NCBI GenBank assembly: GCA_963701085.1 | Contig: OY969561.1 | Coordinates: 64,001 to 128,000, forward strand | DNA length: 64,000 nt | Direction: 5' to 3' | Source of the DNA: an uncultured bacterium | GTDB lineage: Bacteria; Babelota; Babeliae; Babelales; Vermiphilaceae | Part shown: piece after piece, positions 3,680 to 29,453 of the stretch | Layout of the letters: each line of letters opens with the position of its first letter | Numbering within the stretch: position 1 is the stretch's first letter | Notes under the pieces: model-generated | Seen by the model: the letters and a program-made list of their open reading frames with translations, nothing else | Told to the model about the DNA's origin: nothing | The model's database searches: none | Made by a program: the position numbers and the translations under genes

Positions 3680-6139
<2,460 letters not shown>

Positions 6140-6198
6140 AACCCCCCTTAATGAATTTATATATATAAAACAGTATCAAATTTTTTATATGAAAAACA

Positions 6199-6240: not shown

Positions 6241-6286
6241 GAGCAAACTTGTGTGTATTAAACTGATAATTGATTATACAGTTTTT

Positions 6287-6682: not shown

Positions 6683-6702
6683 TATATTTTCCAATTTTAA
6701 GT

Positions 6703-8472
<1,770 letters not shown>

Positions 8473-11009: not shown

Positions 11010-11156
11010 TTTCAATAACAATTGATTAAAACGTTTTCAGCAACCGCGAATCAGTCGTTATTTAAAAAGATTTTGATAACATAAAAAGTTCTTTGAAATA
11101 CACAAGAAAAAGTTTCGTATCTATCGATTTTTCGGTAGGATCCCAGTTCAATTCAG

Positions 11157-12702
<1,546 letters not shown>

Positions 12703-12794
12703 CGAGGGAGATTCACGAACAATATTTTTATATTGTTCTATATAGGTGTTATTTATTACTGGGTCCTGTCGAAAAATTGATAGATACGGCTTAT

Positions 12795-12871
12795 GGGCCT
12801 ATAGCTCAGCTGGTTAGAGCATTCCGCTGATAACGGAAAGGTCAGTCGTTCGAATCGACTTAGGCCCACCA
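12795..12871 (+). tRNA. tRNA-Ile(GAT)
   Basis: Cloverleaf, anticodon arm TTCCG-CT GAT AA-CGGAA, encoded CCA. Confidence 0.97.
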
Positions 12872-13038
12872 TAAGGTTTTAATTTTAAAAAATTTCCCAA
12901 GCAGTAATGTTTGGTGGTTAAAAAATTTAACTATGCGTGGGCTATAGGCAATATTGCATACAGAGTATTGATAGTCATAGGCACATCGATGATTTTGCTC
13001 TTTATTGACAATATAGCGGTGCCCAACGTGAAAATACC

Positions 13039-13114
13039 GGGGGTGTAGCTCAGTTGGCAGAGCGACCGTTTTGCACGCGGTAGGTCAGCGGTTCGAATCC
13101 GCTCATCTCCACCA
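13039..13114 (+). tRNA. tRNA-Ala(TGC)
   Basis: Anticodon TGC, G3:U70 identity pair, encoded CCA. Confidence 0.97.
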
Positions 13115-13258
13115 AAAACCATTAGTTTTTTTCTTTCTTTAATTTTTCTTGTGTATAAAAGTCGTAAAAAATTGTTAGTAGTAATAACAAAAAATTTGTG
13201 ATCTTTGAAATATATGTATTAATGAGTGCTCAATGTTTGAGTAACCAGCAAAATTTGT

Positions 13259-16326
<3,068 letters not shown>

Positions 16327-16468
16327 TGATTATGAAAAAATTTAGGTAACTCATTCTGCATTCATTAATACATATATTCAAAGATCACGATAAGATAATA
16401 CTTTGATATAAAAAAACTTTTCAAAATTGACTAAATCTGTTAAGATTTAATCAATGAGAATAAAAAAT

Positions 16469-16584
16469 TTCTGGTGTGTATAGCTATGGGGAAACACCCG
16501 TCCCCATTCCGAATACGGTAGTAAAGTCCATAGCGCTGAGAATACTTGGTTGGTAACGGCCTGGGAAGTTAGGTAACGCCAGAA
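16469..16584 (+). rRNA. rrf: 5S rRNA
   Basis: TTCTGGTG...CACCCGTCCCCATTCCGAA...CGCCAGAA terminal helix. Confidence 0.96.
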
Positions 16585-16590
16585 TTAATT

Positions 16591-16626
16591 AAAAAAAACC
16601 CTGTCAGAAATGATGGGGTTTTTTTG
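16591..16626 (+). terminator. rrn operon terminator
   Basis: AAAAAAAACCCTGTCA-GAAA-TGATGGGGTTTTTTT. Confidence 0.9.
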
Positions 16627-16720
16627 TGTCTATTTATCCATGCCCTTGACTTGATTAGGTTCCATAGGCTACGTTTTTTTGTGTGTGGCTGGTTATGCAC
16701 ATAAAAAAAGATAGGGGCAA

Positions 16721-17812
16721 ATGATGAAAATAAAGAGTAATCGGTCTTGTCTGTTTTTAATTTTTATTTATTTTGTTTTTTCATCAACAATTCATGCACA
16801 AAAAATTCTTTTAACGGGTGGTGCCGGTTTTATTGGTAGCCATGTTGCGCAGAAATTATTAGAGCGAGGTGATTCAGTTGTTATTGTTGATAACATCAAT
16901 GATGCATATGATTATCGAATTAAAGAATATAATCTTTCGTTAGTTGTAGCGTCAGATACAAACAATCAGCTTTCAGTATATAAAATTGATATTTGCGATA
17001 GTGATGTTGTTGATCAAATATGTGCAACTGAAAGGCCTGATGTTATTTGTCATCTTGCAGCACGCGCCGGAGTACGTTCAAGTATTACCGATCCACATGA
17101 ATATTTTAGAACTAATAATGATGGAACATTGGTTGTTTTTGAAGCTGCTCGTAAGTATGGCATACAACACGTTGTAGCTGCATCAAGTAGCAGTGTGTAT
17201 GGTGTTCGTGAAGACGGACCTTTTCGTGAAACAGATTCAGTCGATAAACAGTCAAGTCCTTATGGTATGACCAAGCGTGCTGGCGAACTTTTGGCATATG
17301 TCTATCATCACCTTTTTGGTGTCTCTATAACTAATTTACGTTTTTTTACGGTATATGGCCCACGCGGCCGAACTGACATGGCCCCTTTCATTTTTATGGA
17401 TGCTATTCATAATCGTAGGCCAATTACGGTGTATGGAGATGGTAGTGCAATTCGTGATTTTACGTATGTTGATGATATTGTTCAAGGGGTTATCAGTGCC
17501 ATTGATACGCCTGCTGGATATCAAATTATTAATATTGGTCGTGGTGAGCCTATTTTATTAAATGATTTTGTGAGCGCAATAGAAAATATAGTGCAAAAAA
17601 AAGCAGATATTAATTATGTAGCAGGTTTTTCTGGTGATGTCCCCAAGACGCATGCAGCTATTGAAAAAGCACAAGAACTGTTGAATTATATGCCACAAAC
17701 ATCTGTGCGATGTGGTTTAGAAAGAATGTATGAGTGGTATAAAAATGAATATCTCTCAATAGTTCCTTATAAACAATCACTTGTATCAGAAGTCTATATT
17801 TTTGAAGATTAA
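16721..17812 (+). CDS. NAD-dependent nucleotide-sugar epimerase (UDP-glucuronate 4-epimerase-like) with signal-peptide-like extension
   Basis: TGGAGFIG, HLAARAGVR, ASSSSVYG, YGMTK, RFFTVYGPRGR.DMA, RDFTYVDDIV; 26-aa hydrophobic leader ending STIHA. Confidence 0.92.
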   Translation: MMKIKSNRSCLFLIFIYFVFSSTIHAQKILLTGGAGFIGSHVAQKLLERGDSVVIVDNINDAYDYRIKEYNLSLVVASDTNNQLSVYKIDICDSDVVDQICATERPDVICHLAARAGVRSSITDPHEYFRTNNDGTLVVFEAARKYGIQHVVAASSSSVYGVREDGPFRETDSVDKQSSPYGMTKRAGELLAYVYHHLFGVSITNLRFFTVYGPRGRTDMAPFIFMDAIHNRRPITVYGDGSAIRDFTYVDDIVQGVISAIDTPAGYQIINIGRGEPILLNDFVSAIENIVQKKADINYVAGFSGDVPKTHAAIEKAQELLNYMPQTSVRCGLERMYEWYKNEYLSIVPYKQSLVSEVYIFED

Positions 17813-17826
17813 AGACCGGTGAAGGA

Positions 17827-19005
17827 GTGTTGCATATGAGTAATAAAATTTTTAGTAACTTTTTTTCAGTTTTATGTGTTGGAATTTTATCATTTTGTTT
17901 TTATCATACAGCTTTACCTGCAGAGCAAAAAAAGCGGATGAAAATTCTTATGGTTGTTTCTACTTTTCCTCAAATTCATGAAATTTGTATGCTCAATCAA
18001 ATGACTGGTCTTATTGATAGAGGCCATGAAGTGCATATTTTTGCTTCTAACAAGGGAGATTGTACGAATATTCAAGAAGATGTTATTAAGTACGATCTTA
18101 TTAATAAAACTATTTTTAAAAAATTACCACCAAACTTGAGTGACTACGATATCATTATGTTTCAACTTGGACATAAGCTGTTTGATGTAAAAAAGAAACG
18201 TAAATTTAAAGGAAAAGTGGTTGTTTGTTTGCGTGGTTATGATATTACGGTGTTTGTAAAAAAAAATCCGCATGCATATGATAACTATTTTGATAGCTGT
18301 GATCTTTTTATGCCAGTATGTGAGGCATTTAAAAAAATAGCTGAACGCATAGGATGTAAGCCAGAGAAAATTGTTGTGCAGCATTCCGCTATTGATTGCT
18401 CAAGGTTTATATTTAAAGAAAGGAAACGGCCCAAAAAGAGTACTATCAATATAGTGAGTGCCGGAAGATTTGTAGAGAAAAAAGGTTTTGATTATGCTAT
18501 TCGTGCCATTGCACAACTTATCAAAAAGTATCCACGTATACGCTATACACTTATTGGTGATGGCGATCTCAAGCAAGAGTACGAAAAACTTATTCAAGAA
18601 TTAGATATTGCTGATAAGGTAACAATGTATGGTTGGCATGCGCATGATGAATATATTGCCATGCTTAATGAAGCGCATCTTTTTATTTTGCCGAGTATTA
18701 CTGCTCAAAATGGCGATCAAGAAGGTATTGCCAATGTTTTAAAAGAAGCCATGGCGATGGGATTGATTGTTGTTGCTACGGATCATTCTGGCAATGCAGA
18801 GCTTATTGATCATGCTGTATCAGGATTTCTTGTGCCTGAGTGTGATAGCAGTGCGATTGCCAAAGCAATTGATTACATCCTCAGTAATCCAGATAAATGG
18901 TCATCATTACAATTAGCAGCAGTTAATAAAGTTAGACAGGAGTTTGATAAAGAAAAAGAAAATGATAAATTAGAGGCCATTTTTTATACGTTGTTGGAAC
19001 AATAA
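17827..19005 (+). CDS. Glycosyltransferase family 4, WcaL-like
   Basis: RGYDI, GRFVEKKG, GDQEGIANVLKEAMAMG; hydrophobic leader. Confidence 0.92.
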   Translation: MLHMSNKIFSNFFSVLCVGILSFCFYHTALPAEQKKRMKILMVVSTFPQIHEICMLNQMTGLIDRGHEVHIFASNKGDCTNIQEDVIKYDLINKTIFKKLPPNLSDYDIIMFQLGHKLFDVKKKRKFKGKVVVCLRGYDITVFVKKNPHAYDNYFDSCDLFMPVCEAFKKIAERIGCKPEKIVVQHSAIDCSRFIFKERKRPKKSTINIVSAGRFVEKKGFDYAIRAIAQLIKKYPRIRYTLIGDGDLKQEYEKLIQELDIADKVTMYGWHAHDEYIAMLNEAHLFILPSITAQNGDQEGIANVLKEAMAMGLIVVATDHSGNAELIDHAVSGFLVPECDSSAIAKAIDYILSNPDKWSSLQLAAVNKVRQEFDKEKENDKLEAIFYTLLEQ

Positions 19006-19030
19006 ATTTTTTAACCTACATGATAAAAAA

Positions 19031-19963
19031 TTGGAGAGAGCTATGCTCGTACGAAGTTTTTTTTTGATGATGATTGTTTTGTTCACAGCCCCTTTTTCCC
19101 TCCTTTCTAAAAATTATTATACCGGGAATAAAGAGGTTGTTCTCATTGATAGCTTTGAGGGAAGCAATTCTTTTATAAGTTATGTCACTATTGGTGGAAA
19201 TAAATATATTATTAAGCAAAAAAGAGATATGAAAAAGCAGATATCAATAGTGCGTGATGCGCTTGCTGCTTATATTGCTCAAGATCTTAATATAGCTCAT
19301 TTAGTTGAAGTCATTGCAGCAAAAGATAATATTATTGGAAAAAAATATGCATGGTTACCAGCAACACGTCACACGGTTGCTGCAGGTAAGACGTTGCGTG
19401 AGCAACCAGAAAGTAAATATCACAAATTATCCCTACAGCAACATTCTCCAGAAGATCATTCATTGGCGAAAAGTGGGTTAACCACCGTAATTATTGAGTG
19501 TATGACATGGCACGAGCAATTACCAATTATTGTAGCACTTGATTTGTTTATTTGTAATACGGATCGTCACCGTGGAAATCTTTTTTATGATCCAGTAACA
19601 GATACTTTTTGTGCCATCGATATGGATGATATTTTTAAATATAATTTACCTGAATTAGCATGTAAAAAGCTAGATTTGATGATAAATGCTGATAAAAAGC
19701 AGTTTACTAAAAAAGAGATTGAGGCTTTGAAGTGTGTAAGAAATACGATTAAGTTTTTATCGAAAAAATATACTTCAAAAAAAATTATCGACAAACTTCA
19801 TTTTTTTGCTCAACAGGCAGTCTGTATTAAAGATAAGGTAGAATGTAGCAGACGAATGGCAGAGCTCATAGCACAGCATGAAGAAATTATTATTAAAAGC
19901 TGCGCAAGTGTGCACCAATTGATAGTAGTTTTGGATAAAATTATTAAGAATTTTAATAAATAA
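19031..19963 (+). CDS. Atypical kinase, PI3/4-kinase/HipA-like fold, signal-peptide-like leader (start possibly 19043)
   Basis: YIIKQK catalytic Lys, LDLFICNTDRHRGNL catalytic loop, CAIDMD metal-binding motif. Confidence 0.8.
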   Translation: MERAMLVRSFFLMMIVLFTAPFSLLSKNYYTGNKEVVLIDSFEGSNSFISYVTIGGNKYIIKQKRDMKKQISIVRDALAAYIAQDLNIAHLVEVIAAKDNIIGKKYAWLPATRHTVAAGKTLREQPESKYHKLSLQQHSPEDHSLAKSGLTTVIIECMTWHEQLPIIVALDLFICNTDRHRGNLFYDPVTDTFCAIDMDDIFKYNLPELACKKLDLMINADKKQFTKKEIEALKCVRNTIKFLSKKYTSKKIIDKLHFFAQQAVCIKDKVECSRRMAELIAQHEEIIIKSCASVHQLIVVLDKIIKNFNK

Positions 19964-19993
19964 TTTTATCCACTAAAATATTTTGTTACTGTT

Positions 19994-20031
19994 GACTTAT
20001 AAAAGCTTTTTATTTAATGCTTTTATAAGTC
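19994..20031. repeat. 13-bp inverted repeat between kinase genes (terminator or operator)
   Basis: GACTTATAAAAGC...GCTTTTATAAGTC, overlapping a TTGACT hexamer. Confidence 0.6.
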
Positions 20032-20055
20032 TTATTAGTCTGATAGAAAGCGGAG

Positions 20056-20981
20056 ATGTTTATGGTAATGCGTGTTTTTATTATGTTTGGCTTTTTTTTG
20101 ATTACGATATCATCCTCGATGTTGTGTAAAATTTATTATACCGGTAAAGAAAATGTTATTTTAACCGGTGGCTTCGAGTCGAAAAATTCTTTTATTAGCT
20201 ATGTTACGATTAATGGTTCTCACTATATTGTTAAACAAAAAAAAAGAGTACAAAGAAGATAGCATTCGTGCGTGATGCTCTTGCTGCATATATTGCTCAG
20301 GATCTTGGTGTGGCTCATGAAGTTCAAATTGTTTCGGCAATAGATGATATTGCTGGAAAAATGTACAGAGATGTGCCAGCAACGCTTCATACTCGCGCTG
20401 ACGGTAAAATGGTGAGTGATTTGCGGGGGAATAAATATTTTGACCTAGCTTTAAAACAACGATCTCCTGAAGAAGATCCTTTAGCCAATAGGTGGCTAAC
20501 TGAAACAATTATTCACCAAATGACATGGCATAAACAATTACCAATTATTATAGCACTTGATTTGTTTATTAGTAACACTGATCGTCATCGTGGAAATCTT
20601 TTTTATGATGAAAAAACCGATCGTTTTTGTGCAATTGATATGGATAATATTTATAGACGTGATTTACCGGCTCTTGCATGTGAAAAATTAGATTTAATGG
20701 TTAATGTGTATCAGAAGAAGTTTACTCAAGAAGAGATTAAAGCATTGAAGAGTGTCAGAGATACGCTGCAATTATTATTAAAAAAGCATGCACCAGCTAA
20801 GACTATTGCTCAGCTTCATTTGTTTGCCAAGCAAGCAGGTTATAGTAATATGGAAATCATGAATGGCAAAAATAAGTCAAAAAAAATAGCTTCGCATGAA
20901 GAAATGATTGTTCAAAGTTATATGAGTGCGCAGAAATTGGTGGTAGTTTTGGATAAAATTATTAATAGTTTTTATAACTAA
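20056..20981 (+). CDS. Atypical kinase paralog 2, frameshifted in an A9 tract (20237-20245)
   Basis: ORFs 20056-20262 and 20268-20981 together align with the paralogs; one more A gives KQKKKSTKKIAFVRDAL with the paralog spacing; DRHRGN and AIDMD intact. Confidence 0.8.
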
Positions 20982-20987
20982 ATTATT

Positions 20988-21941
20988 GTGGTATTTATGA
21001 AGGCGGAGAAAATTATGGTAATGCGTGTTTTTATGGTTCTTAGTTTTCTTTTATTTACGGTAACATCTTCGATATTTTCTAAAATTTATTATACGGGTAA
21101 AGAAGAAGTTTCGCTTATTAATACGATTGAAGGTAAAAATTGTTTTATCAGCTACGTCATGATTAATGGCCACAAATATCTCCTTAAGCAAAAAAAAGAT
21201 TATAAAAACCAATTGGCCGTTGTACGAGATGCTTTGGCAGCATACGTTGCTGAAGATCTTAACATTGCGCATGAGATTGAGATTGTTGAATCAACAAAAG
21301 AGTTCCCTGGGAAAGTTAAAACCTCGTGGCCTGCAACATTGCATAAAATTGCTCTGGGCGATACGGTCAGAAGGCAACGAGACTGTAAATATAATGCATT
21401 ACGGTTGAGACAGTTTTGGGCACAAGCGCAGTCATTTAATGAAAAAGGGCTCACAAAGGCAATTATCGAGTATATGACATGGCATAGACAATTGCCGAAA
21501 ATAGTTGCGTTAGATCTGATTATAGGTAATTCAGATCGTCATTGTGGAAACCTTTGTTATGATGCTACCACTGATACATTTTGCGCTATTGATATGGATG
21601 ATACGTTCAATAAAGATTTATGTTTTTTGGCATATGAAAAACTTAAATATATGATAAATGAAGATAAAGTAGTTTTTAATAGGCAAGAATTGCGTGCGCT
21701 TGCTCAGATGCGAGATACATTAAAATTTTTGGTACGTAAGCATACTCCCTATGATCTGATTCAAAGGCTTCATTTTTTTGCTCGTAAGGCTGGATTTAGT
21801 AGAGGGCAAGAGATGTATGATGGGCGGATTGAGAGAAAACTGTTGAAGTTTGAAGCAATGATTATAAAAACGCATGCGAGTGCATATAAACTGATATCGC
21901 TGCTTGATAAAATTATTAGTCGTAAACTTACAATAAATTGA
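20988..21941 (+). CDS. Atypical kinase paralog 3
   Basis: YLLKQK, VRDALAA, NSDRHCGNL, CAIDMD; leader MVMRVFMVLSFLLFTVTSSIFS. Confidence 0.8.
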   Translation: MVFMKAEKIMVMRVFMVLSFLLFTVTSSIFSKIYYTGKEEVSLINTIEGKNCFISYVMINGHKYLLKQKKDYKNQLAVVRDALAAYVAEDLNIAHEIEIVESTKEFPGKVKTSWPATLHKIALGDTVRRQRDCKYNALRLRQFWAQAQSFNEKGLTKAIIEYMTWHRQLPKIVALDLIIGNSDRHCGNLCYDATTDTFCAIDMDDTFNKDLCFLAYEKLKYMINEDKVVFNRQELRALAQMRDTLKFLVRKHTPYDLIQRLHFFARKAGFSRGQEMYDGRIERKLLKFEAMIIKTHASAYKLISLLDKIISRKLTIN

Positions 21942-21944
21942 GTT

Positions 21945-23207
21945 ATGGGGAAAGAAATGTTGCGGTATAAATATTTTATTGTACTGGTCATCATTTTTTT
22001 CTATAGAAGTAGTTATGGACAAGATTCGTTAAAACCATTGGATATACTGTTTGTTGTAGGACATTTTCCTGCTCCTTCTCAGACCTTTATTCTTAATATT
22101 ATTACGGGATTAATTGATAAAGGTCATAATATTTCTATTTTTTCATTTAATAAAGATAATCTACTTCACGCGCATCCCAATATAGAAAAATATAAGTTAT
22201 TGAATCGTGTTACGTATAAAAAATTTCCAGCAAAATTACCACACTATGATATTGTTTTCTGTCAATTTGGGTATATGGCTCAAAAAATTTTTCAGATGAA
22301 ACATTTGCGCGAATGGCTACGACAAAGAAAAGTGGTTGTCTGTTTTAGAGGATCAGATATAACAGTGTATCTTCAAAAGGACCCAAAAATGTATAAACGA
22401 ACATTTAGGCGAGGAAATCTTTTTTTACCTGTTTGTGACTATTTCAGACAAAAGCTTATTGCATTGGGGTGCAAAGCTCATAAGATATTAGTGCACCATT
22501 CTGCTATTGATTGTTCACAGTTTTTTTTTACATCACGAGAAAAACCTAAAAAGGATACTATTCATTTGGTTTCCGTGTGTAGACTTGTCGAAAAAAAAGG
22601 CATTGATGATGCAATAAAAGCATGTGCTGAAGTTATAAAAAAACATCCACAGGTACATTATACCATTGTTGGTGATGGCCCAGAACGAACGTATTTAGAG
22701 TTATTAATACATCAATTATATCTTCAGGATAATGTTACGCTTTGTGGGTGGAAAGGTCATGATGAAATAGTTTCTATTTTGGACAAATCACATATTTTTT
22801 TGTTGCCATCAAGAACCGCCTCTGATGGGAATGAAGAGGGGATTGCCAATGCTTTAAAAGAAGCAATGGCGATGGGGTTAATTTCTGTTGGGACATGGCA
22901 TGCTGGAACACCTGAATTGATTGATGATAATGTATCTGGATATCTTGTGCCTGAAAATGATGTATGGAGGTTAGCCAATACAGTTAACTTTATTATAGAG
23001 CATCCAGAACTATGGAAATCTGTAGGATTAGCGGCACGAAAAAAAGTTGAAGATGAATTTGAGACCGGGCAATCTATCGAAAAATTAGAAAAACTATTTT
23101 ATGCATTACTTGGGTGGCAAGACTGTTATCTGTGTACGGAGAATGAATATGCGGATGATGAAAAAATTAATTTTAATAGCGGTTCTTCTTTATTTATGTC
23201 CCATTGA
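21945..23207 (+). CDS. Glycosyltransferase family 4, WcaL-like (start possibly 21957)
   Basis: FPAPSQTFILN, FRGSDI, RLVEKKG, EEGIANALKEAMAMG; hydrophobic leader. Confidence 0.92.
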   Translation: MGKEMLRYKYFIVLVIIFFYRSSYGQDSLKPLDILFVVGHFPAPSQTFILNIITGLIDKGHNISIFSFNKDNLLHAHPNIEKYKLLNRVTYKKFPAKLPHYDIVFCQFGYMAQKIFQMKHLREWLRQRKVVVCFRGSDITVYLQKDPKMYKRTFRRGNLFLPVCDYFRQKLIALGCKAHKILVHHSAIDCSQFFFTSREKPKKDTIHLVSVCRLVEKKGIDDAIKACAEVIKKHPQVHYTIVGDGPERTYLELLIHQLYLQDNVTLCGWKGHDEIVSILDKSHIFLLPSRTASDGNEEGIANALKEAMAMGLISVGTWHAGTPELIDDNVSGYLVPENDVWRLANTVNFIIEHPELWKSVGLAARKKVEDEFETGQSIEKLEKLFYALLGWQDCYLCTENEYADDEKINFNSGSSLFMSH

Positions 23208-24315
23208 AGCAGGTAATCCACATCCCTTGAACATACTTTTTGTCGTAGGGTATTTTCCTTCCTTGTCGCAAATTTATATTTTGAATATGATTACAGGCTT
23301 GATTAATAGAGGTCATAATGTTTCTATTTTTTCATTTCATAAAAGTGATGAGCTTGATATGCATCCTCATGTTGAAAAATATAAGTTATTGAATCGTGTT
23401 ATATATGAAAATTTTCCTGAAATATTACCAGAATGTGATATTGTTTTTTGTCAGTTTGGAGGATTGGGTAAAAAAATTTTGGAGATACCCAATTTATCTG
23501 AATGGTTGCAAAAACGCAAGATGGTAGTGTGCTTAAGAGGTTTTGATGTAATGGGCTATGTTAATAACCCTGCGGGTCTTAATACCTATATTTTTAATAA
23601 GGTCGATCTTTTTTTACCCGTCTGCAACTATTTTAAAAATCGTTTTATTGCTTTAGGGTGTAATCCAGAAAAAATAGTTGTGCATCATTCCGCTATTGAT
23701 TGTACACAATTTTGTTTTAAAATACGACAAAGACCAGAACAAGGTATTGTTCATCTGATTTCTGTTTGTAGGCTTGTCAAAAAAAAAGGCATTGATATTG
23801 CAATAAAAGCATTGGTCGAAGTTATCAAAAAATATCGGCGGGTACATTATACTATTGTTGGTGATGGACCAGAACGAACATATTTGGAGTTATTAATACA
23901 GCAATTATGTCTTCAGGATAAGGTTACGCTTTGTGGCTGGAAGAATCATGATGAACTTGTTTCTATTTTAGATCAATCTCATATTTTTTTGCTACCATCG
24001 GTAACGCCACCTAATGGTAATGAAGAGGGTATTTCCAATGCGTTGAAAGAGGCGATGGCAATGGGGCTCGTTTCTATAGCAACGTGGCATGCAGGAACTC
24101 CTGAATTAATAGATGATGGAGTGTCTGGATATTTGGTTCCGGAAAACGATAGCATCGAATTAGCTAACAAAATTAATTACATCATAAAACGTTCAGGAAA
24201 ATGGAAATCTATAGGTTTAGCGGCACGAAAAAAAATTGAAGATGAGTTTGAGACCAAGCAATCTATAAAACAGCTCGAAAAAATTTTTTATAAATTGCTT
24301 GGTTTGTCATTATAA
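23149..24315 (+). CDS. Glycosyltransferase family 4, WcaL-like
   Basis: Start reassigned to ATG 23149 (GGAG 7 nt upstream); leader MKKLILIAVLLYLCPIEA; RLVKKKG, EEGISNALKEAMAMG. Confidence 0.9.
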   Translation: MRMMKKLILIAVLLYLCPIEAGNPHPLNILFVVGYFPSLSQIYILNMITGLINRGHNVSIFSFHKSDELDMHPHVEKYKLLNRVIYENFPEILPECDIVFCQFGGLGKKILEIPNLSEWLQKRKMVVCLRGFDVMGYVNNPAGLNTYIFNKVDLFLPVCNYFKNRFIALGCNPEKIVVHHSAIDCTQFCFKIRQRPEQGIVHLISVCRLVKKKGIDIAIKALVEVIKKYRRVHYTIVGDGPERTYLELLIQQLCLQDKVTLCGWKNHDELVSILDQSHIFLLPSVTPPNGNEEGISNALKEAMAMGLVSIATWHAGTPELIDDGVSGYLVPENDSIELANKINYIIKRSGKWKSIGLAARKKIEDEFETKQSIKQLEKIFYKLLGLSL

Positions 24316-24318: not shown

Positions 24319-27300
24319 TTAATGTTGTCTATTTATATACCAATACCAGATAGCAGAGAAAGTGCTCACCGCACACGCGCTCATAATTGCTGCAAACACT
24401 TCTCCTGGATATGCATTAAATATCACTTTTTGTGCCAATTTTAGCATAACAAAGCTGCCCGTTGCGAGCGGAATGAGTGCAAAATCATAGCGAATGATAA
24501 AGCGGTACATTGCAAGAAACGCCCAGCCAATTATTGATCCCACGATAATCCACAGCGGTAGATCCTCAAGAGATGGTAATTCACAGAGCGCCATGCCGCA
24601 CAGCGCAGCAAATCCTATAAAGAATACGCAATGCTTTTGCCATTGTTGTGTTGCCGTATCAATGAGCATAAACAGTAGAGAAAATGCAATGGTGATTTGT
24701 GCATAGTACGTGAGTGTGTTTATCAGTGTAGCAACTAATGGAATAATGCAACTCAGAGCATCGTAGTTTGGCCACAGTGGCATGTTGGTTGGAATGAGTT
24801 TATATGCAAAGCCCAAAATTCCTGCAAAAAATAGTCCCACGCACATTCCCGTACTTATGGTTGTTGCATTGTTCGGTAAGTGGTGTGATCTTTTTTGTCC
24901 CATTATATAACTCATAACAGCCGCGTACATAATTGATTTGATGACAGCACTTACCGTGAGTGATGTTATGAATTGAATGAGTTGGTTCATTAAGGGCAGA
25001 CTGGTATTAAAACCACCGGCTATGCTTGGCCAAGTATTAATTATTTCAGCAAAAAAGAGTACCGTTATGATACTAAATAATGTGAAAAAGAGTTGTTTTG
25101 AAAAAATAAAACTTATTTTTTGTCTGTATAAAAGAATGATTGCAAAGAGTAAAAAGAACAGCAAAATGAGAAAGAAAATTATGACGATAATATTCAGCAT
25201 GTTTTGTTTATGCAGTTCATTACGTTCCCATTCTTCAGGAACATGAATGGTGCGTACTGCATCAACAACTTTATCACCAGCAATGGTAATGTTGATACGT
25301 GCTTGGCCACTGTTGAGTGGGTATACTGCCGGATTTGAGAAAATAAATAACCAATTTTTTCTATTCGGCAATTGTGTTTGTGTTGCAGAAATTTCCGTCA
25401 GTTCTGCCGGGTTAAGATTGAACTGTTCTTGCAATGTTGCATGCGCAATTGCACGTGCTTCATGTTGAGACAGTTGCGCGCCAGCGGTAGTTTCAGGTAA
25501 TTGGTGGTAGTAGCGCCAAATGCTATTATCGTAGAACATTACTTTGTGCTCTTCTGCACGTTGTATAATATCAGTATCAAATTGTGCGTAACGGATTGTC
25601 CAGTGTGTCGGGTGTAAATAGGTGCCCAAAAGATTATGATACAACTCTTTGTTGCCTTCTCTCCAGATGAATTTATGTTGAATGGCAATTTGCGGAACAA
25701 GTTTGTAGTGCGTAAATATAAGTGGTAACGTTTTCCATGGCTTGTCCGACGAAGCTTTAGCGAAGTCGGAAGTGTGCGGTAGAAAATTTTTCTCTGCTAA
25801 ATATGCATTTGCCGTTGCAATTGCCTCATTTCTATTCATGGTAATAGTGACGCCATCATGAGTAAATGGTGTTGTCCCTATCCATGCAATAAGACCTGCT
25901 ATACCAAGAACGAGCATTAGTTTTTGCGTTGCTGTGCTTAGTGTGTATGATTCAGTTTGTCTGATGACAGGTTCTACTTTTTCTTTTGTTATTGCAGTAG
26001 CTGTCCATGATTCATTGAGAGCTGATTGTGGCAGTTCTGTCCAGCAACCTTTTTTTATGCGTGCATACAGTATACATGCAAGCGGAAGCATGGTAATGAG
26101 TACAATAGTTATTTTGTAAGCGAGTGCATGTGGTGTTTGGGATACAAAAATGGGCAATGAAAACCAAATAATATCATAAACAGTGTGTGCAATAATATTG
26201 GTGAGTAAACCAAACCGTAAATAAATTGCACCCCAGATGAATGATGGTATGAGTAATTCAACAAGACGTGCATATGATGGTTGCATCGGATAATTGGCAT
26301 GCGCAGCACCAAAAATAACCGCTTGTAAGATAAATGCAGCAGTTATCCACCAATTTCTCTTACCAAAATAGTCTCCTATTAAGGCAGCCCCCGCTAGGGG
26401 GATTGCTCTAAAAAGACATTCTTCCATAAAACCAGCATTCAATGATTGAGCAATGGGTGAAAACCAGGGGACATAAGTTGCTAAGATATTGGGATCGAAT
26501 AACATTTCCGACGGTGACCACCATCCCAAATAACGGGTGGAAAATAAATAAAATCCAATCACAAATGCACAGTTAAAACCAACAAGGAGATATGCGCCAA
26601 CAGTTCTGCCTAATACCGCATATGATGTACTGATATTGTTTTGCCACAAAGACCATAGTTGTGGTTGATGGCCAAAAGCACGGCGTGTTAAGCTTTCTGC
26701 AGTCATAATAACTACTGTTAAAAAGGCTGTTTGAGCGAGCAAATTGATAAAAAAACTGAGAAATAGTTGTATAAGAAAACCATTTGATGAGTGAGCGCTA
26801 TTATAATGCATCCATAAAAAAGGTAATCGATTGATAGCTGTTAGTACTGACATGCATGCAAGCAATATTGCCCATTGTAATGGTTGTTTTATAATGTACC
26901 AGCGTCGTCTCATAATCCAAAATAGACCAAGACAGCAGCCGCCAAGAATATAAAGTAATCCCATAATAAGGTTTGCTGCCCAAGAAATGGTATTATTTGC
27001 TGAACGCATTTCAGCATAACGGCGATTGAATGCTTCAGGTACTTTAACAAAATGGGTTAGTTCGGTCATTTTGTTGCCGCTGACAACTATTTTTAAGCGG
27101 TATAAGCCTTCACCAGACTTCGCCAAGGCTTCGTCGGGCAGGCCTATTTTTTTATCTGCACGTTCATAGACAAAGGTGTGATCAATTCTTTCGCTAGGTT
27201 CTGTTTTTTGTGATGCTTCAACTAATGTGTAGTCAGTAAAGGTAACATTCCAATCAGCAGCACCGTTTTTTTCTGCTATCTGTTGCGCATCAGTTGATGA

Positions 27301-27732
27301 TAATTGTGCGCCAGGAACATTCTCTGAAACAGTTTCTACAAAGCCATACGGCTGGCCATCAGGAGTGAATGTAATGGTTGTTTCATTTTTTTCATGCTCT
27401 TTAAAATGGCGTACGCGCCAGGTATATGGCATGTAAAGATTGTGTTCCATCATTGCTACAAACGCATCTTTGCCGCCAGCTTCAAGTTCCACGAATGTTT
27501 TAACGGCATTGTCTGTGTGAAACATTGCGGCATATTCATAACTGTTAGGACCTAGTTGATGTTGTTCCGCTATTTTATCTGCTTTATCTAAAGCTTGTTC
27601 AAGATCCATACTGATTTTGAGATGGATAAGGGGAAATGTTTGTGGGAAAAAGTGAAATGCAAAAAAGTATAACAGTCCTGAAAGGATTGTTGCGCTAATC
27701 CACATAAGTGGAGAACATGAATAATGTTTCAT
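24319..27732 (-). CDS. Large membrane protein with CPBP (Abi/CAAX type II) intramembrane metalloprotease domain
   Basis: EECLFR, FGAAH, AHTVYD motifs; two similar extracytoplasmic domains and many TM helices. Confidence 0.85.
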   Translation of the reverse strand: MKHYSCSPLMWISATILSGLLYFFAFHFFPQTFPLIHLKISMDLEQALDKADKIAEQHQLGPNSYEYAAMFHTDNAVKTFVELEAGGKDAFVAMMEHNLYMPYTWRVRHFKEHEKNETTITFTPDGQPYGFVETVSENVPGAQLSSTDAQQIAEKNGAADWNVTFTDYTLVEASQKTEPSERIDHTFVYERADKKIGLPDEALAKSGEGLYRLKIVVSGNKMTELTHFVKVPEAFNRRYAEMRSANNTISWAANLIMGLLYILGGCCLGLFWIMRRRWYIIKQPLQWAILLACMSVLTAINRLPFLWMHYNSAHSSNGFLIQLFLSFFINLLAQTAFLTVVIMTAESLTRRAFGHQPQLWSLWQNNISTSYAVLGRTVGAYLLVGFNCAFVIGFYLFSTRYLGWWSPSEMLFDPNILATYVPWFSPIAQSLNAGFMEECLFRAIPLAGAALIGDYFGKRNWWITAAFILQAVIFGAAHANYPMQPSYARLVELLIPSFIWGAIYLRFGLLTNIIAHTVYDIIWFSLPIFVSQTPHALAYKITIVLITMLPLACILYARIKKGCWTELPQSALNESWTATAITKEKVEPVIRQTESYTLSTATQKLMLVLGIAGLIAWIGTTPFTHDGVTITMNRNEAIATANAYLAEKNFLPHTSDFAKASSDKPWKTLPLIFTHYKLVPQIAIQHKFIWREGNKELYHNLLGTYLHPTHWTIRYAQFDTDIIQRAEEHKVMFYDNSIWRYYHQLPETTAGAQLSQHEARAIAHATLQEQFNLNPAELTEISATQTQLPNRKNWLFIFSNPAVYPLNSGQARINITIAGDKVVDAVRTIHVPEEWERNELHKQNMLNIIVIIFFLILLFFLLFAIILLYRQKISFIFSKQLFFTLFSIITVLFFAEIINTWPSIAGGFNTSLPLMNQLIQFITSLTVSAVIKSIMYAAVMSYIMGQKRSHHLPNNATTISTGMCVGLFFAGILGFAYKLIPTNMPLWPNYDALSCIIPLVATLINTLTYYAQITIAFSLLFMLIDTATQQWQKHCVFFIGFAALCGMALCELPSLEDLPLWIIVGSIIGWAFLAMYRFIIRYDFALIPLATGSFVMLKLAQKVIFNAYPGEVFAAIMSACAVSTFSAIWYWYINRQH
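25741..25770 (-). repeat. 30-nt palindromic element (family A), in frame in CPBP gene
   Basis: TCCGACTTCGCTAAAGCTTCGTCGGACAAG, translated SDFAKASSDK. Confidence 0.9.
27113..27142 (+). repeat. 30-nt palindromic element (family A), in frame and antisense in CPBP gene
   Basis: CCAGACTTCGCCAAGGCTTCGTCGGGCAGG, translated LPDEALAKSG on the coding strand. Confidence 0.9.
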
Positions 27733-28466: not shown

Positions 28467-29453
28467 ATGGGGGTTCTTATGAAACGTTATATACATATCG
28501 CATTACTTGCTCTTTTTGCTCAGTGTGGATTATCAAATGTTGTTTATAGTATGAATATAGCGCCTGTAACAGTAGGGCCAGATTCAATTGTGAATGCTAT
28601 TAAACAGTATTCTGATTTAACCGAAGCTGATGTGAATCAATATAAACTATTATGGCTTGGTAGTCTTGGTACAGCGGGTGCATTTGTTTTGGGAGCAGCT
28701 TCAACTATTGGAGCCGGTGTGGGAGCGTATCAACAGGCAGGATTAGTTCAAGGTATTACTTTTGAATCTACTCCAAGTTGGATGAAAAATGCTTTGGTTT
28801 TGGCTGGATTAGGTTCTGTCGGTACGGGTTATGTGAGTTATAAATTATTGTATCCACGTATTCGTGCAGGTGTTCTTAATAAGGTTCAAAGATTTATTGA
28901 TGTGTGTGAGGCTTTGTATGGGGACAGTCCTGCCGATATAACTGGTACAGTTTATAGTGTTGTGACGTATAATTTTGAGTATAGAAATTTGAGTATGCTG
29001 CGATCATATCTTCCTAAGCATTGGCCAGCGGGAGATGATGTAGCCGTGTACAATGCTCTTGATAACTTGGCTAAACAGGGACGTCTAGCTCAAGCTTTGT
29101 TGAATCAAATAAGAACAAGTGATGATGAAGTTAATGCCATGAAAGAAGTGGTAAAAACGTATAGTGATAATTTGTCTGCTAATCTGAAATTATATGAACC
29201 TATGATTGATGTTGCATATAGAAAAAAACGTGAAGCGGCAGAGCTTGCTGGGATAGAAGTAGGTACAACTTTAATGAAAGCAAAAACAATTGAAACATAT
29301 GGAACTATGGTAACAAGCACTTTTAACAATGCTTGGAAGGGATTGAATTTTCTTTATGAAAATCAGCAGTATATTATGGGTGCAGTAGGTTCCATAGGTT
29401 TAATTAGTGCATATAGTTATGTGAAGTCTAAATTACTTGGTGGACAACAATAA
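28467..29453 (+). CDS. Hypothetical secreted/membrane protein
   Basis: 328 aa; leader ending VVYS-MN; Gly/Ala-rich hydrophobic segments. Confidence 0.7.
   Translation: MGVLMKRYIHIALLALFAQCGLSNVVYSMNIAPVTVGPDSIVNAIKQYSDLTEADVNQYKLLWLGSLGTAGAFVLGAASTIGAGVGAYQQAGLVQGITFESTPSWMKNALVLAGLGSVGTGYVSYKLLYPRIRAGVLNKVQRFIDVCEALYGDSPADITGTVYSVVTYNFEYRNLSMLRSYLPKHWPAGDDVAVYNALDNLAKQGRLAQALLNQIRTSDDEVNAMKEVVKTYSDNLSANLKLYEPMIDVAYRKKREAAELAGIEVGTTLMKAKTIETYGTMVTSTFNNAWKGLNFLYENQQYIMGAVGSIGLISAYSYVKSKLLGGQQ

What the first reader, a model, noticed from the sequence alone, without database searches (positions are those of the whole stretch)
16721..24315. Candidate exported glycosylation-phosphorylation operon: epimerase, three GT4s and three atypical kinases, all with signal-peptide-like leaders
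Seen: seven co-oriented, closely spaced genes (epimerase, GT4, kinase x3, GT4 x2). Each has a basic-hydrophobic-small-residue N-terminal extension in front of the catalytic domain, e.g. ...FVFSSTIHA-QKILLTGGAGFIG and MKKLILIAVLLYLCPIEA-GN. Established: UDP-sugar epimerases and WcaL-type GT4s are cytoplasmic, start directly at the catalytic domain, and need nucleotide sugars or ATP that the periplasm lacks. No wzx/wzy/ABC exporter is in the cluster. Inference: the pathway is exported to a compartment with host UDP-sugars and ATP (vacuole or host cytosol) and builds a phosphorylated glycan or modifies host molecules. I do not recall such a system being described.
Basis: partly seen in the sequence, partly recalled or inferred. 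Interest (0 to 1): 0.85.

Follow-up and report, generated by a model that had tools for sequence, protein, structure and literature searches.

The report
Exported sugar-building and kinase operon
An intracellular, protist-parasitic bacterium carries a conserved operon whose sugar-nucleotide epimerase, glycosyltransferases and unusual kinases all bear export signals, which suggests they work outside the bacterial cytoplasm on sugars and ATP taken from the host.

Summary
Window 16721-24315 is one co-oriented operon directly behind the rRNA operon. It encodes a UDP-glucuronate-4-epimerase-like SDR, three GT4 glycosyltransferases and three PI3/4-kinase-like atypical kinases. The middle kinase is frame-broken in an A9 run.

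Every gene starts with a basic, then hydrophobic, then small-residue leader, and a Shine-Dalgarno-like motif precedes most leader-including starts. The leaders are conserved in kind but not in sequence: 109 of 116 epimerase relatives, 110 of 114 GT4 relatives and 119 of 129 kinase-family representatives have one. Hydrophobic cores have medians of 11-14 residues. Ala sits at -1 in 87 of 110 epimerases. Twenty housekeeping proteins in the window have no such leader.

The gene order recurs behind 5S rRNA in 7 of 7 related Dependentiae genomes, without a flippase, polymerase, ABC exporter or priming transferase.

Best reading: a Sec-exported glycosylation and phosphorylation module fed by host UDP-sugars and ATP. 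Export is well supported in silico. The compartment, acceptor and product are inferred.

Large Sec secretomes in this phylum and secreted glycogen enzymes in Chlamydia are already known, so I class this as a new variant of a known kind. No searched paper describes this operon.

The parts
16592..16625 (+). Terminator-like hairpin after 5S rRNA. It separates the rRNA operon (11156-16584) from the cluster.
   Evidence: One search finds a 15-pair stem followed by a T run. One search places 5S at 16470-16584.
16721..17812 (+). EPIM: a UDP-glucuronate-4-epimerase-like extended SDR of 363 aa. The leader is residues 1-26 (MMKIKSNRSCLFLIFIYFVFSSTIHA), and the Rossmann strand QKILLTGGAGFIG follows directly.
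   Evidence: - Pfam Epimerase, 203.7 bits.
- PDB 6zl6 family at 4.3e-54 and MoeE5 (6kv9) at 2.9e-45.
- Sources name relatives 'UDP-glucuronate 4-epimerase'.
- GGAGFIG and YGMTK motifs are present.
- 'tagggg' lies before the ATG, and there is no ATG, GTG or TTG between the leader and the fold.
- 109 of 116 relatives have a leader, with Ala at -1 in 87 of 110.
17836..19005 (+). GT4a: a GT4 (GT-B) glycosyltransferase of 389 aa. Its leader is long and atypical (MSNKIFSNFFSVLCVGILSFCFYHTALPA). The relic Met of MKILMVV marks the start of the domain.
   Evidence: - Glycos_transf_1, 131.8 bits.
- WcaL model 197.5 bits against a cut-off of 537.6.
- EX7E motif at residue 296.
- AAGGAG lies 5 nt before ATG 17836, and there is no SD-like motif before the internal ATG.
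- Orthologs in 6 of 7 loci (8 genes counting the window's own, two of them in L004; none in L006), all with leaders.
19043..19963 (+). KIN1: a PI3/4-kinase-like atypical kinase of 306 aa with leader MLVRSFFLMMIVLFTAPFSLLS.
   Evidence: - PF00454 at 18.0 bits, below the cut-off.
- 49% identical to KIN3.
- DRHRGN and DMD motifs present.
- 'ggagag' lies 4 nt before the ATG.
- A KIN1-type ortholog is present in 6 of 7 loci.
20062..20981 (+). KIN2: a third kinase copy in two frames (20062-20262 and 20268-20981). The frame changes inside the A9 run at 20237-20245. Its leader is MVMRVFIMFGFFLITISSSMLC.
   Evidence: - Searches show the break.
- DRHRGN and DMD are kept in the second piece.
- An intact relative exists elsewhere (P0121, 306 aa).
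- rpoC is also frame-broken in this window, so an assembly error cannot be told apart from a pseudogene.
21015..21941 (+). KIN3: a PI3/4-kinase-like atypical kinase of 308 aa with leader MVMRVFMVLSFLLFTVTSSIFS.
   Evidence: - PF00454 at 31.4 bits against a cut-off of 27.1.
- AF2 model with pLDDT 94.7.
- Foldseek top hits are CtkA, PI3Ks, actin-fragmin kinase and CotH, with TM 0.40-0.47.
- Invariant K58, D174-R175, N179 and D193/D195 among 30 close relatives.
- 'aaggcggag' lies before the ATG.
21957..23207 (+). GT4b: a GT4 glycosyltransferase of 416 aa with leader MLRYKYFIVLVIIFFYRSSYG. A C-terminal tail of about 30 aa overlaps the start of GT4c.
   Evidence: - Glycos_transf_1, 116.8 bits.
- WcaL model 218.5 bits against 537.6.
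- EX7E motif at residue 294.
- Sequence.
23149..24315 (+). GT4c: a GT4 glycosyltransferase of 388 aa with leader MRMMKKLILIAVLLYLCPIEA.
   Evidence: - Glycos_transf_1, 111.9 bits.
- WcaL model 199.6 bits against 537.6.
- EX7E motif at residue 293.
- 'ggaga' lies 6 nt before ATG 23149.
- 110 of 114 relatives have a leader.
- A conserved RPLN precedes ILFVV in relatives.

Best explanation
The cluster is a conserved operon of a Babeliales (Dependentiae) lineage. Its enzymes belong to classes that are normally cytoplasmic, but each is made with a cleavable Sec-type signal peptide grafted directly onto the catalytic domain.

**Proposed mechanism**
1. The proteins cross the inner membrane unfolded and are cleaved by signal peptidase I.
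2. They fold in the periplasm, or are passed on by the type II system, which is the only secretion system reported in this phylum.
3. The bacterium replicates inside a protist and imports host ATP. Host nucleotides therefore have to pass its outer membrane, so ATP, NAD and UDP-sugars are available outside its cytoplasm.
4. The epimerase converts host UDP-glucuronate to UDP-galacturonate, or performs a related 4-epimerisation, in the same place.
5. The 3-6 GT4 paralogs add sugars one after another, directly onto an acceptor. No lipid carrier or flippase is involved.
6. The two conserved kinase types phosphorylate the product.

The most likely target is the bacterium's own LPS-less envelope or its secreted surface proteins. 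A host target is less likely.

**Shown here:** the gene content, intact catalytic motifs, signal-peptide-like leaders and their conservation, the synteny, and the absence of carrier or export genes in the cluster.

**Inferred:** export and cleavage, the compartment, the source of substrates, the linkage of the genes into one pathway, and the acceptor.
For: **Leaders are translated and conserved**
- Leaders are seen.
- SD-like motifs precede the leader-including starts in the window. They also precede 7 of 8 GT4a orthologs. The internal ATG has none in 6 of 7 and only a weak, distant GGTG in one.
- No alternative ATG, GTG or TTG is possible for the epimerase.

| Family | Relatives with a leader |
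|---|---|
| Epimerase | 109 of 116 |
| GT4c | 110 of 114 (96 of 111 by a second measure) |
| Close KIN3 relatives | 103 of 108 |
| Kinase family, 50%-identity representatives | 119 of 129 (100 of 129 with KD12 of 2.0 or more) |

**Leaders look like signal peptides, not anchors**
- Hydrophobic cores have medians of 11-14 residues. Cores of 19 or more occur in only 4, 3, 2 and 5 proteins of the four sets.
- The N flank is more positive than the C flank in 71, 99, 52 and 103 proteins. The reverse holds in 11, 6, 22 and 6.
- In the epimerases, Ala is at -1 in 87 of 110, and L, I, V, A, S or C is at -3 in 98 of 110.
- In the window epimerase the predicted cleavage site is two residues before the Rossmann strand, so there is no stem for an anchor.

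**Controls and context**
- The 20 housekeeping proteins in the window have no leader.
- Catalytic motifs are intact (invariant kinase residues).
- The order EPIM, GT4a, KIN, KIN, then GT4 copies recurs directly behind 5S rRNA in 7 of 7 loci, with no flippase, polymerase, ABC exporter or priming transferase.
- By my manual comparison, 32 contig lengths occur in both the kinase and epimerase hit lists. This is only a proxy for the same contig.

**Literature (passages read)**
- 44% of C. destructans CDS have signal peptides, ATP is imported from the host, and there are no LPS genes (PMC6561590).
- Babeliales lack LPS genes, and a type II system with two gspD copies is core (PMC4776705).
- Precedent: Chlamydia secretes glycogen enzymes that use host UDP-glucose (PMC4829429, abstract).
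Against: - No signal-peptide predictor was available. All topology calls rest on my own hydropathy, charge and -3/-1 heuristics.
- The epimerase relatives mostly have Lys-Lys at +1 and +2. From recalled E. coli work, basic residues there hinder Sec export.
- For close KIN3 relatives the charge bias is weak (52 for, 29 neutral, 22 against).
- GT4a has a long uncharged segment followed by a net +3 flank. That fits an N-out anchor with a cytoplasmic domain. It also keeps a Met exactly at the domain start in the window and in 6 of the 7 orthologs from other loci.
- GT4b and GT4c have a TTG exactly at the domain start.
- An SDR exported by Sec would have to acquire NAD outside the cytoplasm.
- The high base rate of leaders in this organism (about 20 of 50 ORFs) lowers the statistical weight of the observation.
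- All loci with proven synteny are close relatives. 16S identity is 96.8-97.2% for the 4 loci measured.
- Nothing links the kinases biochemically to the glycan. Operon membership is the only tie.
- Cysteines conserved in the KIN3 subfamily are not conserved family-wide, so there is no disulfide argument for export.
Confidence: 0.6

Rival explanations
1. The genes are exported effectors that act separately on host molecules rather than forming one glycan pathway. The GT4s would glycosylate host proteins or lipids. The PI3/4-kinase-like enzymes would phosphorylate host proteins or phosphoinositides. The genes would share an operon only for co-expression.
For: - The evidence for export is the same as in the main explanation.
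- The closest folds to the kinase are a secreted H. pylori kinase (CtkA), PI3-kinases and actin-fragmin kinase.
- The kinase family is large (365 representatives). Further copies lie outside the operon, for example window 30936-31884.
- Signal-peptide-bearing ankyrin proteins and a methyltransferase in the same window show that this organism exports many host-directed proteins (PMC4378268).
Against: - A nucleotide-sugar epimerase has no obvious role as a lone effector. It makes sense only as a supplier for neighbouring transferases.
- Having 3-6 paralogous GT4s in a fixed order with two fixed kinase types in 7 of 7 loci looks like stepwise assembly.
- Fold similarity is distant (TM 0.40-0.47, 11-15% identity) and says nothing about the substrate.
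Confidence: 0.2
2. The hydrophobic N-termini are uncleaved membrane anchors that hold the catalytic domains on the cytoplasmic face. This would be an ordinary membrane-associated cytoplasmic glycan pathway whose carrier and export genes lie elsewhere in the genome.
For: - GT4a has about 19-23 uncharged residues followed by EQKKRMK.
- Lys-Lys follows the epimerase leader.
- N<C charge bias occurs in 11 of 109 epimerase relatives and 22 of 103 KIN3 relatives.
- Only the window and 10-kb flanks were examined, so distant carrier or export genes cannot be excluded.
Against: - Hydrophobic cores have medians of 11-14 residues, too short to span a membrane. Cores of 19 or more occur in only 2-5 proteins per set.
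- N flanks are basic (mean +2.1 to +2.7), which by the positive-inside rule (recalled) puts the N-terminus inside and the domain outside.
- A conserved small residue sits at -1, and the epimerase has no linker before its first strand.
- No flippase, polymerase or priming transferase is present in 8 of 8 clusters.
Confidence: 0.12
3. The leaders are artefacts of start-codon choice. Translation would begin at the internal Met or TTG at the domain boundary, and the enzymes would be ordinary cytoplasmic proteins.
For: - GT4a has MKILMVV at the boundary.
- GT4b and GT4c have TTG at the Leu of PLD/PLN-ILFVV.
- One gene caller started a 95%-range relative at that point (P0400, 'MDILFVV').
- Nine other leader-bearing ORFs in the window have a Met right after the hydrophobic segment.
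Against: - The epimerase and the kinases have no start codon at the boundary.
- The upstream frames stay open, basic then hydrophobic, in more than 100 diverged relatives per family while their sequence drifts.
- Arg-Pro just upstream of the TTG/Leu is conserved at the protein level.
- SD-like motifs sit before the long starts and not before the internal ATG.
Confidence: 0.04

Closest known systems
Chlamydia trachomatis secreted glycogen enzymes (GlgA and partners) that use host UDP-glucose in the inclusion lumen (Gehre et al. 2016, PMC4829429; abstract read)
   Same: An obligate intracellular bacterium places Leloir-type glycan enzymes outside its own cytoplasm and feeds them with host nucleotide sugar.
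   Different: - The route there is type 3 secretion. Here the proteins carry N-terminal Sec-type leaders in a phylum reported to have only a type II system.
- The enzymes there are glycogen enzymes of known product. Here there are an epimerase, 3-6 GT4 paralogs and two kinase types, with the product unknown.
- Nothing has been tested experimentally here.
LPS inner-core assembly genes of Enterobacteria (GT4 WaaG with the sugar kinases WaaP and WaaY). This comparison is recalled and was not tested here.
   Same: GT4 transferases and kinase-fold enzymes are interleaved in one operon and build a phosphorylated oligosaccharide step by step on an acceptor without polymerisation.
   Different: - Those enzymes are cytoplasmic and leaderless, act on lipid A-Kdo, and their product is flipped by MsbA.
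- Babeliales lack most LPS genes.
- The kinases here are PI3/4K-like and are not WaaP-like by any search I ran.
Sec-signal effector secretome of Dependentiae (Babela massiliensis, Chromulinavorax destructans; PMC4378268 and PMC6561590, passages read)
   Same: The phylum is the same, the N-terminal leaders are of the same kind, and the presumed route (Sec plus type II) is the same. The same window holds leader-bearing ankyrin proteins.
   Different: - Those papers discuss ankyrins, proteases, nucleases and ubiquitin-system proteins.
- 'glycosyl' and 'epimerase' do not occur in their main texts in this sense. The counts are 0, 0 and 1, the single hit being a DNA glycosylase.
- Their supplementary tables were not examined.
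Helicobacter pylori CtkA, actin-fragmin kinase, CotH and PI3/PI4-kinases (the PI3/4K-like atypical kinase fold)
   Same: They are the best Foldseek matches to the KIN3 model. The DRHxxN catalytic loop and a DxD metal site are shared.
   Different: - TM scores are only 0.39-0.47 with 11-15% identity.
- No PDB chain matches the family profile by sequence; the best E-value is 0.23.
- NCBIfam has no model for the family.
- This is a distinct family, almost always with a signal peptide.
Golgi-resident type II UDP-glucuronate 4-epimerases (plant GAE) and the secretory-pathway glycan kinases POMK and Fam20B. This comparison is recalled and was not tested here.
   Same: A nucleotide-sugar epimerase, Leloir transferases and glycan kinases work together in a non-cytosolic compartment that is supplied with nucleotide sugars and ATP.
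   Different: - Those are eukaryotic, use uncleaved signal anchors with stem regions, and depend on dedicated nucleotide-sugar transporters.
- I have no evidence of shared descent. The nearest solved epimerases are bacterial.

Membership tests
Sec-type (signal peptidase I) signal peptide | Basic n-region at the extreme N-terminus | tested here: met
   All seven leaders have 1-3 Lys or Arg before the hydrophobic stretch. The mean N-flank charge in relatives is +2.1 to +2.7.
Sec-type (signal peptidase I) signal peptide | Short hydrophobic h-region of about 7-15 residues, shorter than a membrane span | tested here: met
   Core medians are 14, 11, 14 and 13 residues in the four homolog sets. Cores of 19 or more occur in 4 of 109, 3 of 110, 2 of 103 and 5 of 119. 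The window's GT4a is the exception, with about 19-23 residues.
Sec-type (signal peptidase I) signal peptide | Small or neutral residues at -1 and -3 before the mature protein | tested here: met
   - Epimerases have Ala at -1 in 87 of 110, and L, I, V, A, S or C at -3 in 98 of 110.
- The window sites are IHA|Q, IEA|G, SYG|Q and IFS|K.
- This is a heuristic only. No SignalP or DeepTMHMM was available.
Sec-type (signal peptidase I) signal peptide | Actual translocation and cleavage | not testable with these tools
   This needs fusion reporters or N-terminal proteomics.
UDP-glucuronate 4-epimerase (extended SDR) | Rossmann GxxGxxG motif and catalytic YxxxK | tested here: met
   GGAGFIG is at residue 33 and YGMTK at residue 181. 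Pfam Epimerase covers the full profile, 1-240 of 240.
UDP-glucuronate 4-epimerase (extended SDR) | Closest characterised relatives are GlcA 4-epimerases rather than GalE or dehydratases | tested here: inconclusive
   - PDB 6zl6/6zld (named 'Epimerase domain-containing protein' in the file; I recall it as the B. cereus UDP-GlcA 4-epimerase) scores 4.3e-54, and MoeE5 scores 2.9e-45.
- The top hit, 5u4q, is labelled a dTDP-glucose dehydratase.
- JGI names relatives UDP-glucuronate 4-epimerase.
- The NCBIfam GalE model scores 172 bits against a cut-off of 262.
- Substrate specificity was not established.
GT4 glycosyltransferase (GT-B, Glycos_transf_1) | Pfam Glycos_transf_1 above the gathering score, and the EX7E motif | tested here: met
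   Scores are 131.8, 116.8 and 111.9 bits against 26.4. EX7E is at residues 296, 294 and 293.
WcaL (colanic acid glycosyltransferase) equivalog | NCBIfam TIGR04005 at or above its cut-off of 537.6 bits | tested here: not met
   Scores are 197.5, 218.5 and 199.6 bits. These proteins are WcaL-like only by best hit and are not members of the equivalog.
PI3/PI4-kinase-like atypical kinase | Pfam PF00454 above its gathering score of 27.1 | tested here: inconclusive
   KIN3 scores 31.4 and meets the cut-off. KIN1 (18.0) and KIN2 (19.6) do not.
PI3/PI4-kinase-like atypical kinase | DRHxxN catalytic loop, a metal-binding Asp (DxD/DFG equivalent) and an ATP-binding Lys | tested here: met
   K58, D174, R175, N179, D193 and D195 are invariant in 30 close relatives, with H176 nearly so. 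D193 is invariant and K58, R175 and N179 are at least 90% conserved in 97 diverse members. The motifs are present in KIN1, KIN2 and KIN3.
CtkA, actin-fragmin kinase or CotH families specifically | Sequence- or fold-level membership | tested here: not met
   No PDB chain matches the family profile; the best E-value is 0.23. Foldseek TM is 0.40-0.47 at 9-14% identity. The fold class is shared, but the family is not.
Wzx/Wzy- or ABC-dependent polysaccharide gene cluster | Priming phosphoglycosyl transferase, flippase or ABC exporter, and polymerase within the cluster | tested here: not met
   None is present among the window's genes, nor in the 7 related clusters and their variable inserts. Only the window and 10-kb flanks were seen, so genes elsewhere in the genome are not excluded.

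The most novel reading that the evidence does not exclude
Babeliales run a Golgi-like glycosylation and phosphorylation line outside their cytoplasm. Signal-peptide-bearing Leloir GT4s, a UDP-uronate epimerase and two glycan or protein kinases would decorate the LPS-less cell surface. One candidate acceptor is the Thr-rich (G-X-T)n collagen-like fibres encoded 9-13 kb away (3680-8472). These enzymes would use host UDP-sugars, NAD and ATP that leak through the outer membrane, so the coat could be built only inside a host cell. This would be the first bacterial glycan pathway that needs neither a lipid carrier nor a flippase.
Probability: 0.25. Interest if true: 0.88.

Novelty: new variant of a known kind. 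Interest (0 to 1): 0.68.

Why it matters
Textbook bacterial glycan synthesis keeps nucleotide-sugar enzymes in the cytoplasm and moves lipid-linked products outward. A conserved operon whose epimerase, Leloir transferases and kinases are all Sec-targeted would mean that an energy parasite has moved that chemistry into a space supplied by its host.

- It would explain how LPS-less Babeliales could build a surface coat or modify host structures.
- It would define a large family of signal-peptide kinases that has not been described (365 representatives at 50% identity).
- It offers a simple and testable example of host metabolites being used outside the bacterial cytoplasm.

Tried and rejected
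- **Disulfide argument for export.** Six Cys are conserved in the KIN3 subfamily but none family-wide, and KIN1 lacks most of them. I dropped the argument.
- **Promoter scan.** It found 50 sites against 38.6 +/- 7.9 in shuffles, which is uninformative in this AT-rich DNA. Only the terminator after 5S was used.
- **Sequence search of the PDB with the kinase profile.** Nothing scored below E = 0.23.
- **Foldseek against viral models.** Only distant PI3/4K-like and protein-kinase hits appeared, with TM of 0.49 or less. There is no sign of a giant-virus origin.
- **ESM Atlas for KIN3.** The nearest clusters are unnamed, and some carry PF00454, HipA_2 or Fam20C on a minority of members. These are leads only.
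- **Genome scan for related loci.** It returned only 8 loci: 7 real ones, all close relatives, plus a 30%-identity fragment in a Blautia contig that I ignored. Broad synteny therefore stays unproven.
- **The convergent 1137-aa neighbour as part of the system.** By Atlas features it is a widespread CPBP/Rce1-like membrane protein with no Pfam hit. The genes next to it (glyoxalase, RadA) are conserved too, so this is general collinearity, and I did not include it.
- **Twin-arginine export.** No RR motif occurs in any leader.
- **Lipoprotein signal.** No consistent lipobox occurs.
- **My own error.** In one search I entered GT4c out of frame, so that row is void.
- **Not used.** Complex prediction and the second structure job were not used, because no binding claim is made.

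Full report
**1. What is there**

The window is bacterial. A complete rRNA operon (16S at 11156-12702, 23S at 13259-16327, 5S at 16470-16584) ends in a terminator-like hairpin at 16592-16625. Seven co-oriented genes follow at once.

| Gene | Coordinates | Pfam result |
|---|---|---|
| EPIM | 16721-17812 | Epimerase, 203.7 bits |
| GT4a | 17836-19005 | Glycos_transf_1, 131.8 bits |
| KIN1 | 19043-19963 | PI3_PI4_kinase, 18.0 bits |
| KIN2 | 20062-20262 plus 20268-20981 | PI3_PI4_kinase, 19.6 bits |
| KIN3 | 21015-21941 | PI3_PI4_kinase, 31.4 bits (cut-off 27.1) |
| GT4b | 21957-23207 | Glycos_transf_1, 116.8 bits |
| GT4c | 23149-24315 | Glycos_transf_1, 111.9 bits |

- Gaps between genes are 23, 37, 98, 33 and 15 nt, and GT4b overlaps GT4c by 59 nt.
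- Catalytic motifs are intact. The epimerase has GGAGFIG and YGMTK. All three GT4s have EX7E. KIN1, KIN2 and KIN3 have DRHxGN and DMD.
- KIN2 is in two frames, and the change lies in an A9 run at 20237-20245.
- rpoC is also frame-broken in this window near 46120-46140, outside any long homopolymer. A fourth kinase paralog at 30936-31884 is broken near 31350-31365.
- The assembly may therefore carry indel errors. I cannot say whether KIN2 is a pseudogene.
- Sources name the relatives 'Candidatus Babeliales', 'Candidatus Dependentiae' and 'candidate division TM6'. The window's 16S is 96.8-97.2% identical to those of four such genomes.

**2. The leaders are real**

Each protein begins with 1-3 basic residues, then a hydrophobic stretch, then small residues, and the catalytic domain follows directly.

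Evidence that the leaders are translated:
- A Shine-Dalgarno-like motif lies 4-8 nt before the leader-including start of each gene ('tagggg', 'gaaggag', 'ggagag', 'gcggag', 'aaggcggag', 'gggaaag', 'acggaga').
- The epimerase has no ATG, GTG or TTG between the leader and the Rossmann strand.
- GT4a does have a Met exactly at the domain start, and GT4b and GT4c have a TTG there.
- Across 8 GT4a orthologs, the long start has an SD-like motif in 7. The internal ATG has none in 6 of 7 and only a weak, distant one in the seventh.
- In GT4b/c relatives, the Arg-Pro just upstream of that Leu is conserved as protein sequence.

The strongest evidence is comparative. The leader sequences drift, but their character is kept.

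| Set examined | With a leader | Rows dropped before the count | Call |
|---|---|---|---|
| Epimerase relatives (55-83% identity) | 109 of 116 | 4 of the 120 listed, shorter than 330 aa | 37 (listed in 25) |
| GT4c relatives | 110 of 114 | 6 shorter than 370 aa | 37 |
| GT4c relatives, second measure | 96 of 111 | 9 had no domain motif by my pattern | 34 |
| Close KIN3 relatives | 103 of 108 | 11 shorter than 295 aa | 37 |
| Kinase family, 50%-identity representatives | 119 of 129 | 21 of the 150 listed, shorter than 280 aa | 37 |
| Same kinase set, KD12 of 2.0 or more | 100 of 129 | as above | 21 |

None of the 20 housekeeping proteins in the window has such an N-terminus.

**3. Signal peptide or anchor?**

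I had no SignalP, so this rests on my own measures.
- Hydrophobic cores have medians of 14, 11, 14 and 13 residues. Only 2-5 proteins per set reach 19.
- The N flank is more positive than the 15 residues after the core in 71, 99, 52 and 103 proteins. It is equal in 27, 5, 29 and 10, and less positive in 11, 6, 22 and 6.
- In the epimerases, the residue before the xxILLTGG strand is Ala in 87 of 110, and the -3 residue is L, I, V, A, S or C in 98 of 110.
- That cleavage site leaves no stem between the membrane and the first Rossmann strand. This fits cleavage better than anchoring.

Points against:
- Most epimerase relatives have Lys-Lys at +1 and +2.
- The charge bias of close KIN3 relatives is weak.
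- The window's GT4a has about 19-23 uncharged residues followed by a net-basic flank, so it could be an N-out anchor.

**4. A conserved unit**

One scan of species-representative genomes gave 7 true loci.
- All 7 carry EPIM, a KIN3-type kinase and at least one GT4b/c-type copy, in the same order and orientation. GT4a is absent from L006, and L007 has a second KIN3-like kinase between EPIM and GT4a in place of a KIN1-type copy. GT4b/c-type copies number one to four per locus.
- The cluster lies 74-235 nt behind 5S rRNA in 7 of 7 loci.
- In 6 of the 7 loci the cluster is followed, after variable inserts, by a convergent CPBP/Rce1-like membrane protein of about 1130 aa, and in some by glyoxalase and RadA. 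L005 has none of these within the stretch fetched.
- No flippase, polymerase, ABC exporter or priming transferase is present in any cluster.
- Two kinases are the conserved number. KIN2 is an extra copy in the window.
- These loci are close relatives by 16S, so breadth across the phylum is not shown.
- As a proxy, 32 contig lengths occur in both the kinase and the epimerase hit lists (my manual comparison).

**5. What the enzymes are**

*Epimerase.* Its nearest solved relatives are 5u4q (labelled a dehydratase), the 6zl6 family at 4.3e-54 and MoeE5 at 2.9e-45. JGI names its relatives UDP-glucuronate 4-epimerase. Substrate specificity is not established.

*GT4s.* They hit the WcaL model best, at about 200-218 bits against a cut-off of 537.6, so they are not WcaL equivalogs. 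The nearest solved structures are BshA-type and other GT4 enzymes, at E = 1e-15 or weaker.

*Kinases.*
- They have no NCBIfam model, and no PDB chain matches the family profile by sequence.
- The AlphaFold model of KIN3, built from a 97-sequence alignment, is confident (pLDDT 94.7, pTM 0.90).
- Its best structural matches are H. pylori CtkA, PI3-kinases, Vps34, actin-fragmin kinase and CotH, with TM 0.39-0.47 and 9-15% identity.
- Matches to viral models are equally distant.
- This is therefore a separate family of PI3/4K-like atypical kinases with 365 representatives at 50% identity. The substrate class is unknown.

**6. How it most likely works**

Published passages I read say the following:
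- C. destructans has signal peptides on 44% of its CDS, imports ATP from the host and has no LPS genes (PMC6561590).
- Babeliales lack most LPS genes and have a core type II system with two gspD copies (PMC4776705).
- In B. massiliensis the type II system is the only secretion system, and signal-peptide ankyrins are taken to reach the amoebal cytoplasm (PMC4378268).

In the window itself, leader-bearing ankyrin proteins, a SAM-dependent methyltransferase and two collagen-like proteins accompany the cluster.

My inference runs as follows.
1. The operon's products are exported by Sec.
2. Because host ATP has to cross the outer membrane to reach the inner-membrane importers, ATP, NAD and UDP-sugars are available in the periplasm and beyond whenever the cell is inside a host.
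3. The epimerase supplies an uncommon UDP-sugar on the spot.
4. The paralogous GT4s extend an acceptor stepwise without a lipid carrier.
5. The two kinases phosphorylate the product.

The presence of an epimerase, and the fixed order of several GT4s, favour one pathway over a set of unrelated effectors. The acceptor is unknown. Candidates are the LPS-less envelope, secreted surface proteins or host molecules.

**7. Comparison and novelty**

- The principle has a precedent in Chlamydia, where glycogen enzymes are secreted by type 3 secretion and use host UDP-glucose (PMC4829429, abstract).
- The interleaving of GT4s and kinases recalls LPS core assembly, and the overall logic recalls Golgi glycosylation. 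Both comparisons are recalled and untested.
- The Sec-leader secretome of Dependentiae is known.
- I found no description of this operon or of leader-bearing Leloir transferases and epimerases in Dependentiae.
  - Searches.
  - Term look-ups in the three genome papers.
  - Their supplements were not read.
- I therefore class it as a new variant of a known kind. It is well supported as a sequence observation and open as to mechanism.

Noticed in passing
window 44705-48527 (break near 46120-46140): rpoC is in two overlapping frames. The frame changes inside the conserved '...EAEAF / [11 protein letters not shown]' region, in short T and A runs rather than a long homopolymer. An essential gene broken in this way suggests indel errors in the assembly, or an unusual recoding event.
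   Followed up: partly
window 30936-31364 and 31384-31884: A fourth member of the same kinase family lies here, with leader MKIYKGLIVFLLLSVQLGIA. It sits outside the operon and is also split into two frames near 31350-31365. DRHRGN and DMD are kept.
   Followed up: partly
window 3680-6139 (-) and 6703-8472 (-): Two leader-bearing collagen-like proteins carry long (G-A/N/P-T)n repeats, so there is a Thr in nearly every triplet. From memory, this resembles the glycosylated BclA of Bacillus exosporium. They are possible acceptors for exported glycosyltransferases. They lie 9-13 kb from the operon on the other side of the rRNA genes.
   Followed up: partly
window 16470-16721; L001-L007: The operon sits 74-235 nt downstream of 5S rRNA in the window and in 7 of 7 related genomes. 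This is an unusually fixed position behind the rRNA operon. Read-through expression is possible, although the window has a terminator-like hairpin there.
   Followed up: partly
window 3260-3652, 28467-29453, 53355-58554, 60661-62426; also L004 10406-11275, L006 13381-14885, L007 6291-8426: Many other leader-bearing ORFs (ankyrin proteins, unknowns, a methyltransferase) have a Met directly after the small residue that ends the leader: ...HAMEQ, ...HAMEN, ...YAMEL, ...SCMEK, ...YGMEL, ...YGMEV, ...SAMEIE, ...GMDL. It looks as if signal peptides were grafted onto ancestral start codons, or as if small-residue/Met/acidic is a sorting or cleavage motif. It also raises the question of dual starts.
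   Followed up: no
window 57670-58554 (-): A SAM-dependent methyltransferase (Methyltransf_25/23/11) carries a signal-peptide-like leader, MNRYIIISLCVINSLSC. It is another cofactor-dependent enzyme of a cytoplasmic type that appears to be exported.
   Followed up: no
window 24319-27732 (-): A 1137-aa polytopic membrane protein has no Pfam hit but is CPBP/Rce1-like by ESM Atlas features. It is the convergent neighbour of the operon in the window and in 6 of 7 related loci (none was found within the stretch fetched for L005).
   Followed up: partly
window 18001-24000 and 54001-58000: GC content is 0.33-0.34 in the operon and in the ankyrin-gene block, against 0.38-0.39 in the neighbouring housekeeping genes.
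   Followed up: no
window 23115-23207: GT4b has a C-terminal tail of about 30 residues (…GWQDCYLCTENEYADDEKINFNSGSSLFMSH) that GT4a and GT4c lack. The tail overlaps the ribosome-binding site and leader of GT4c.
   Followed up: no
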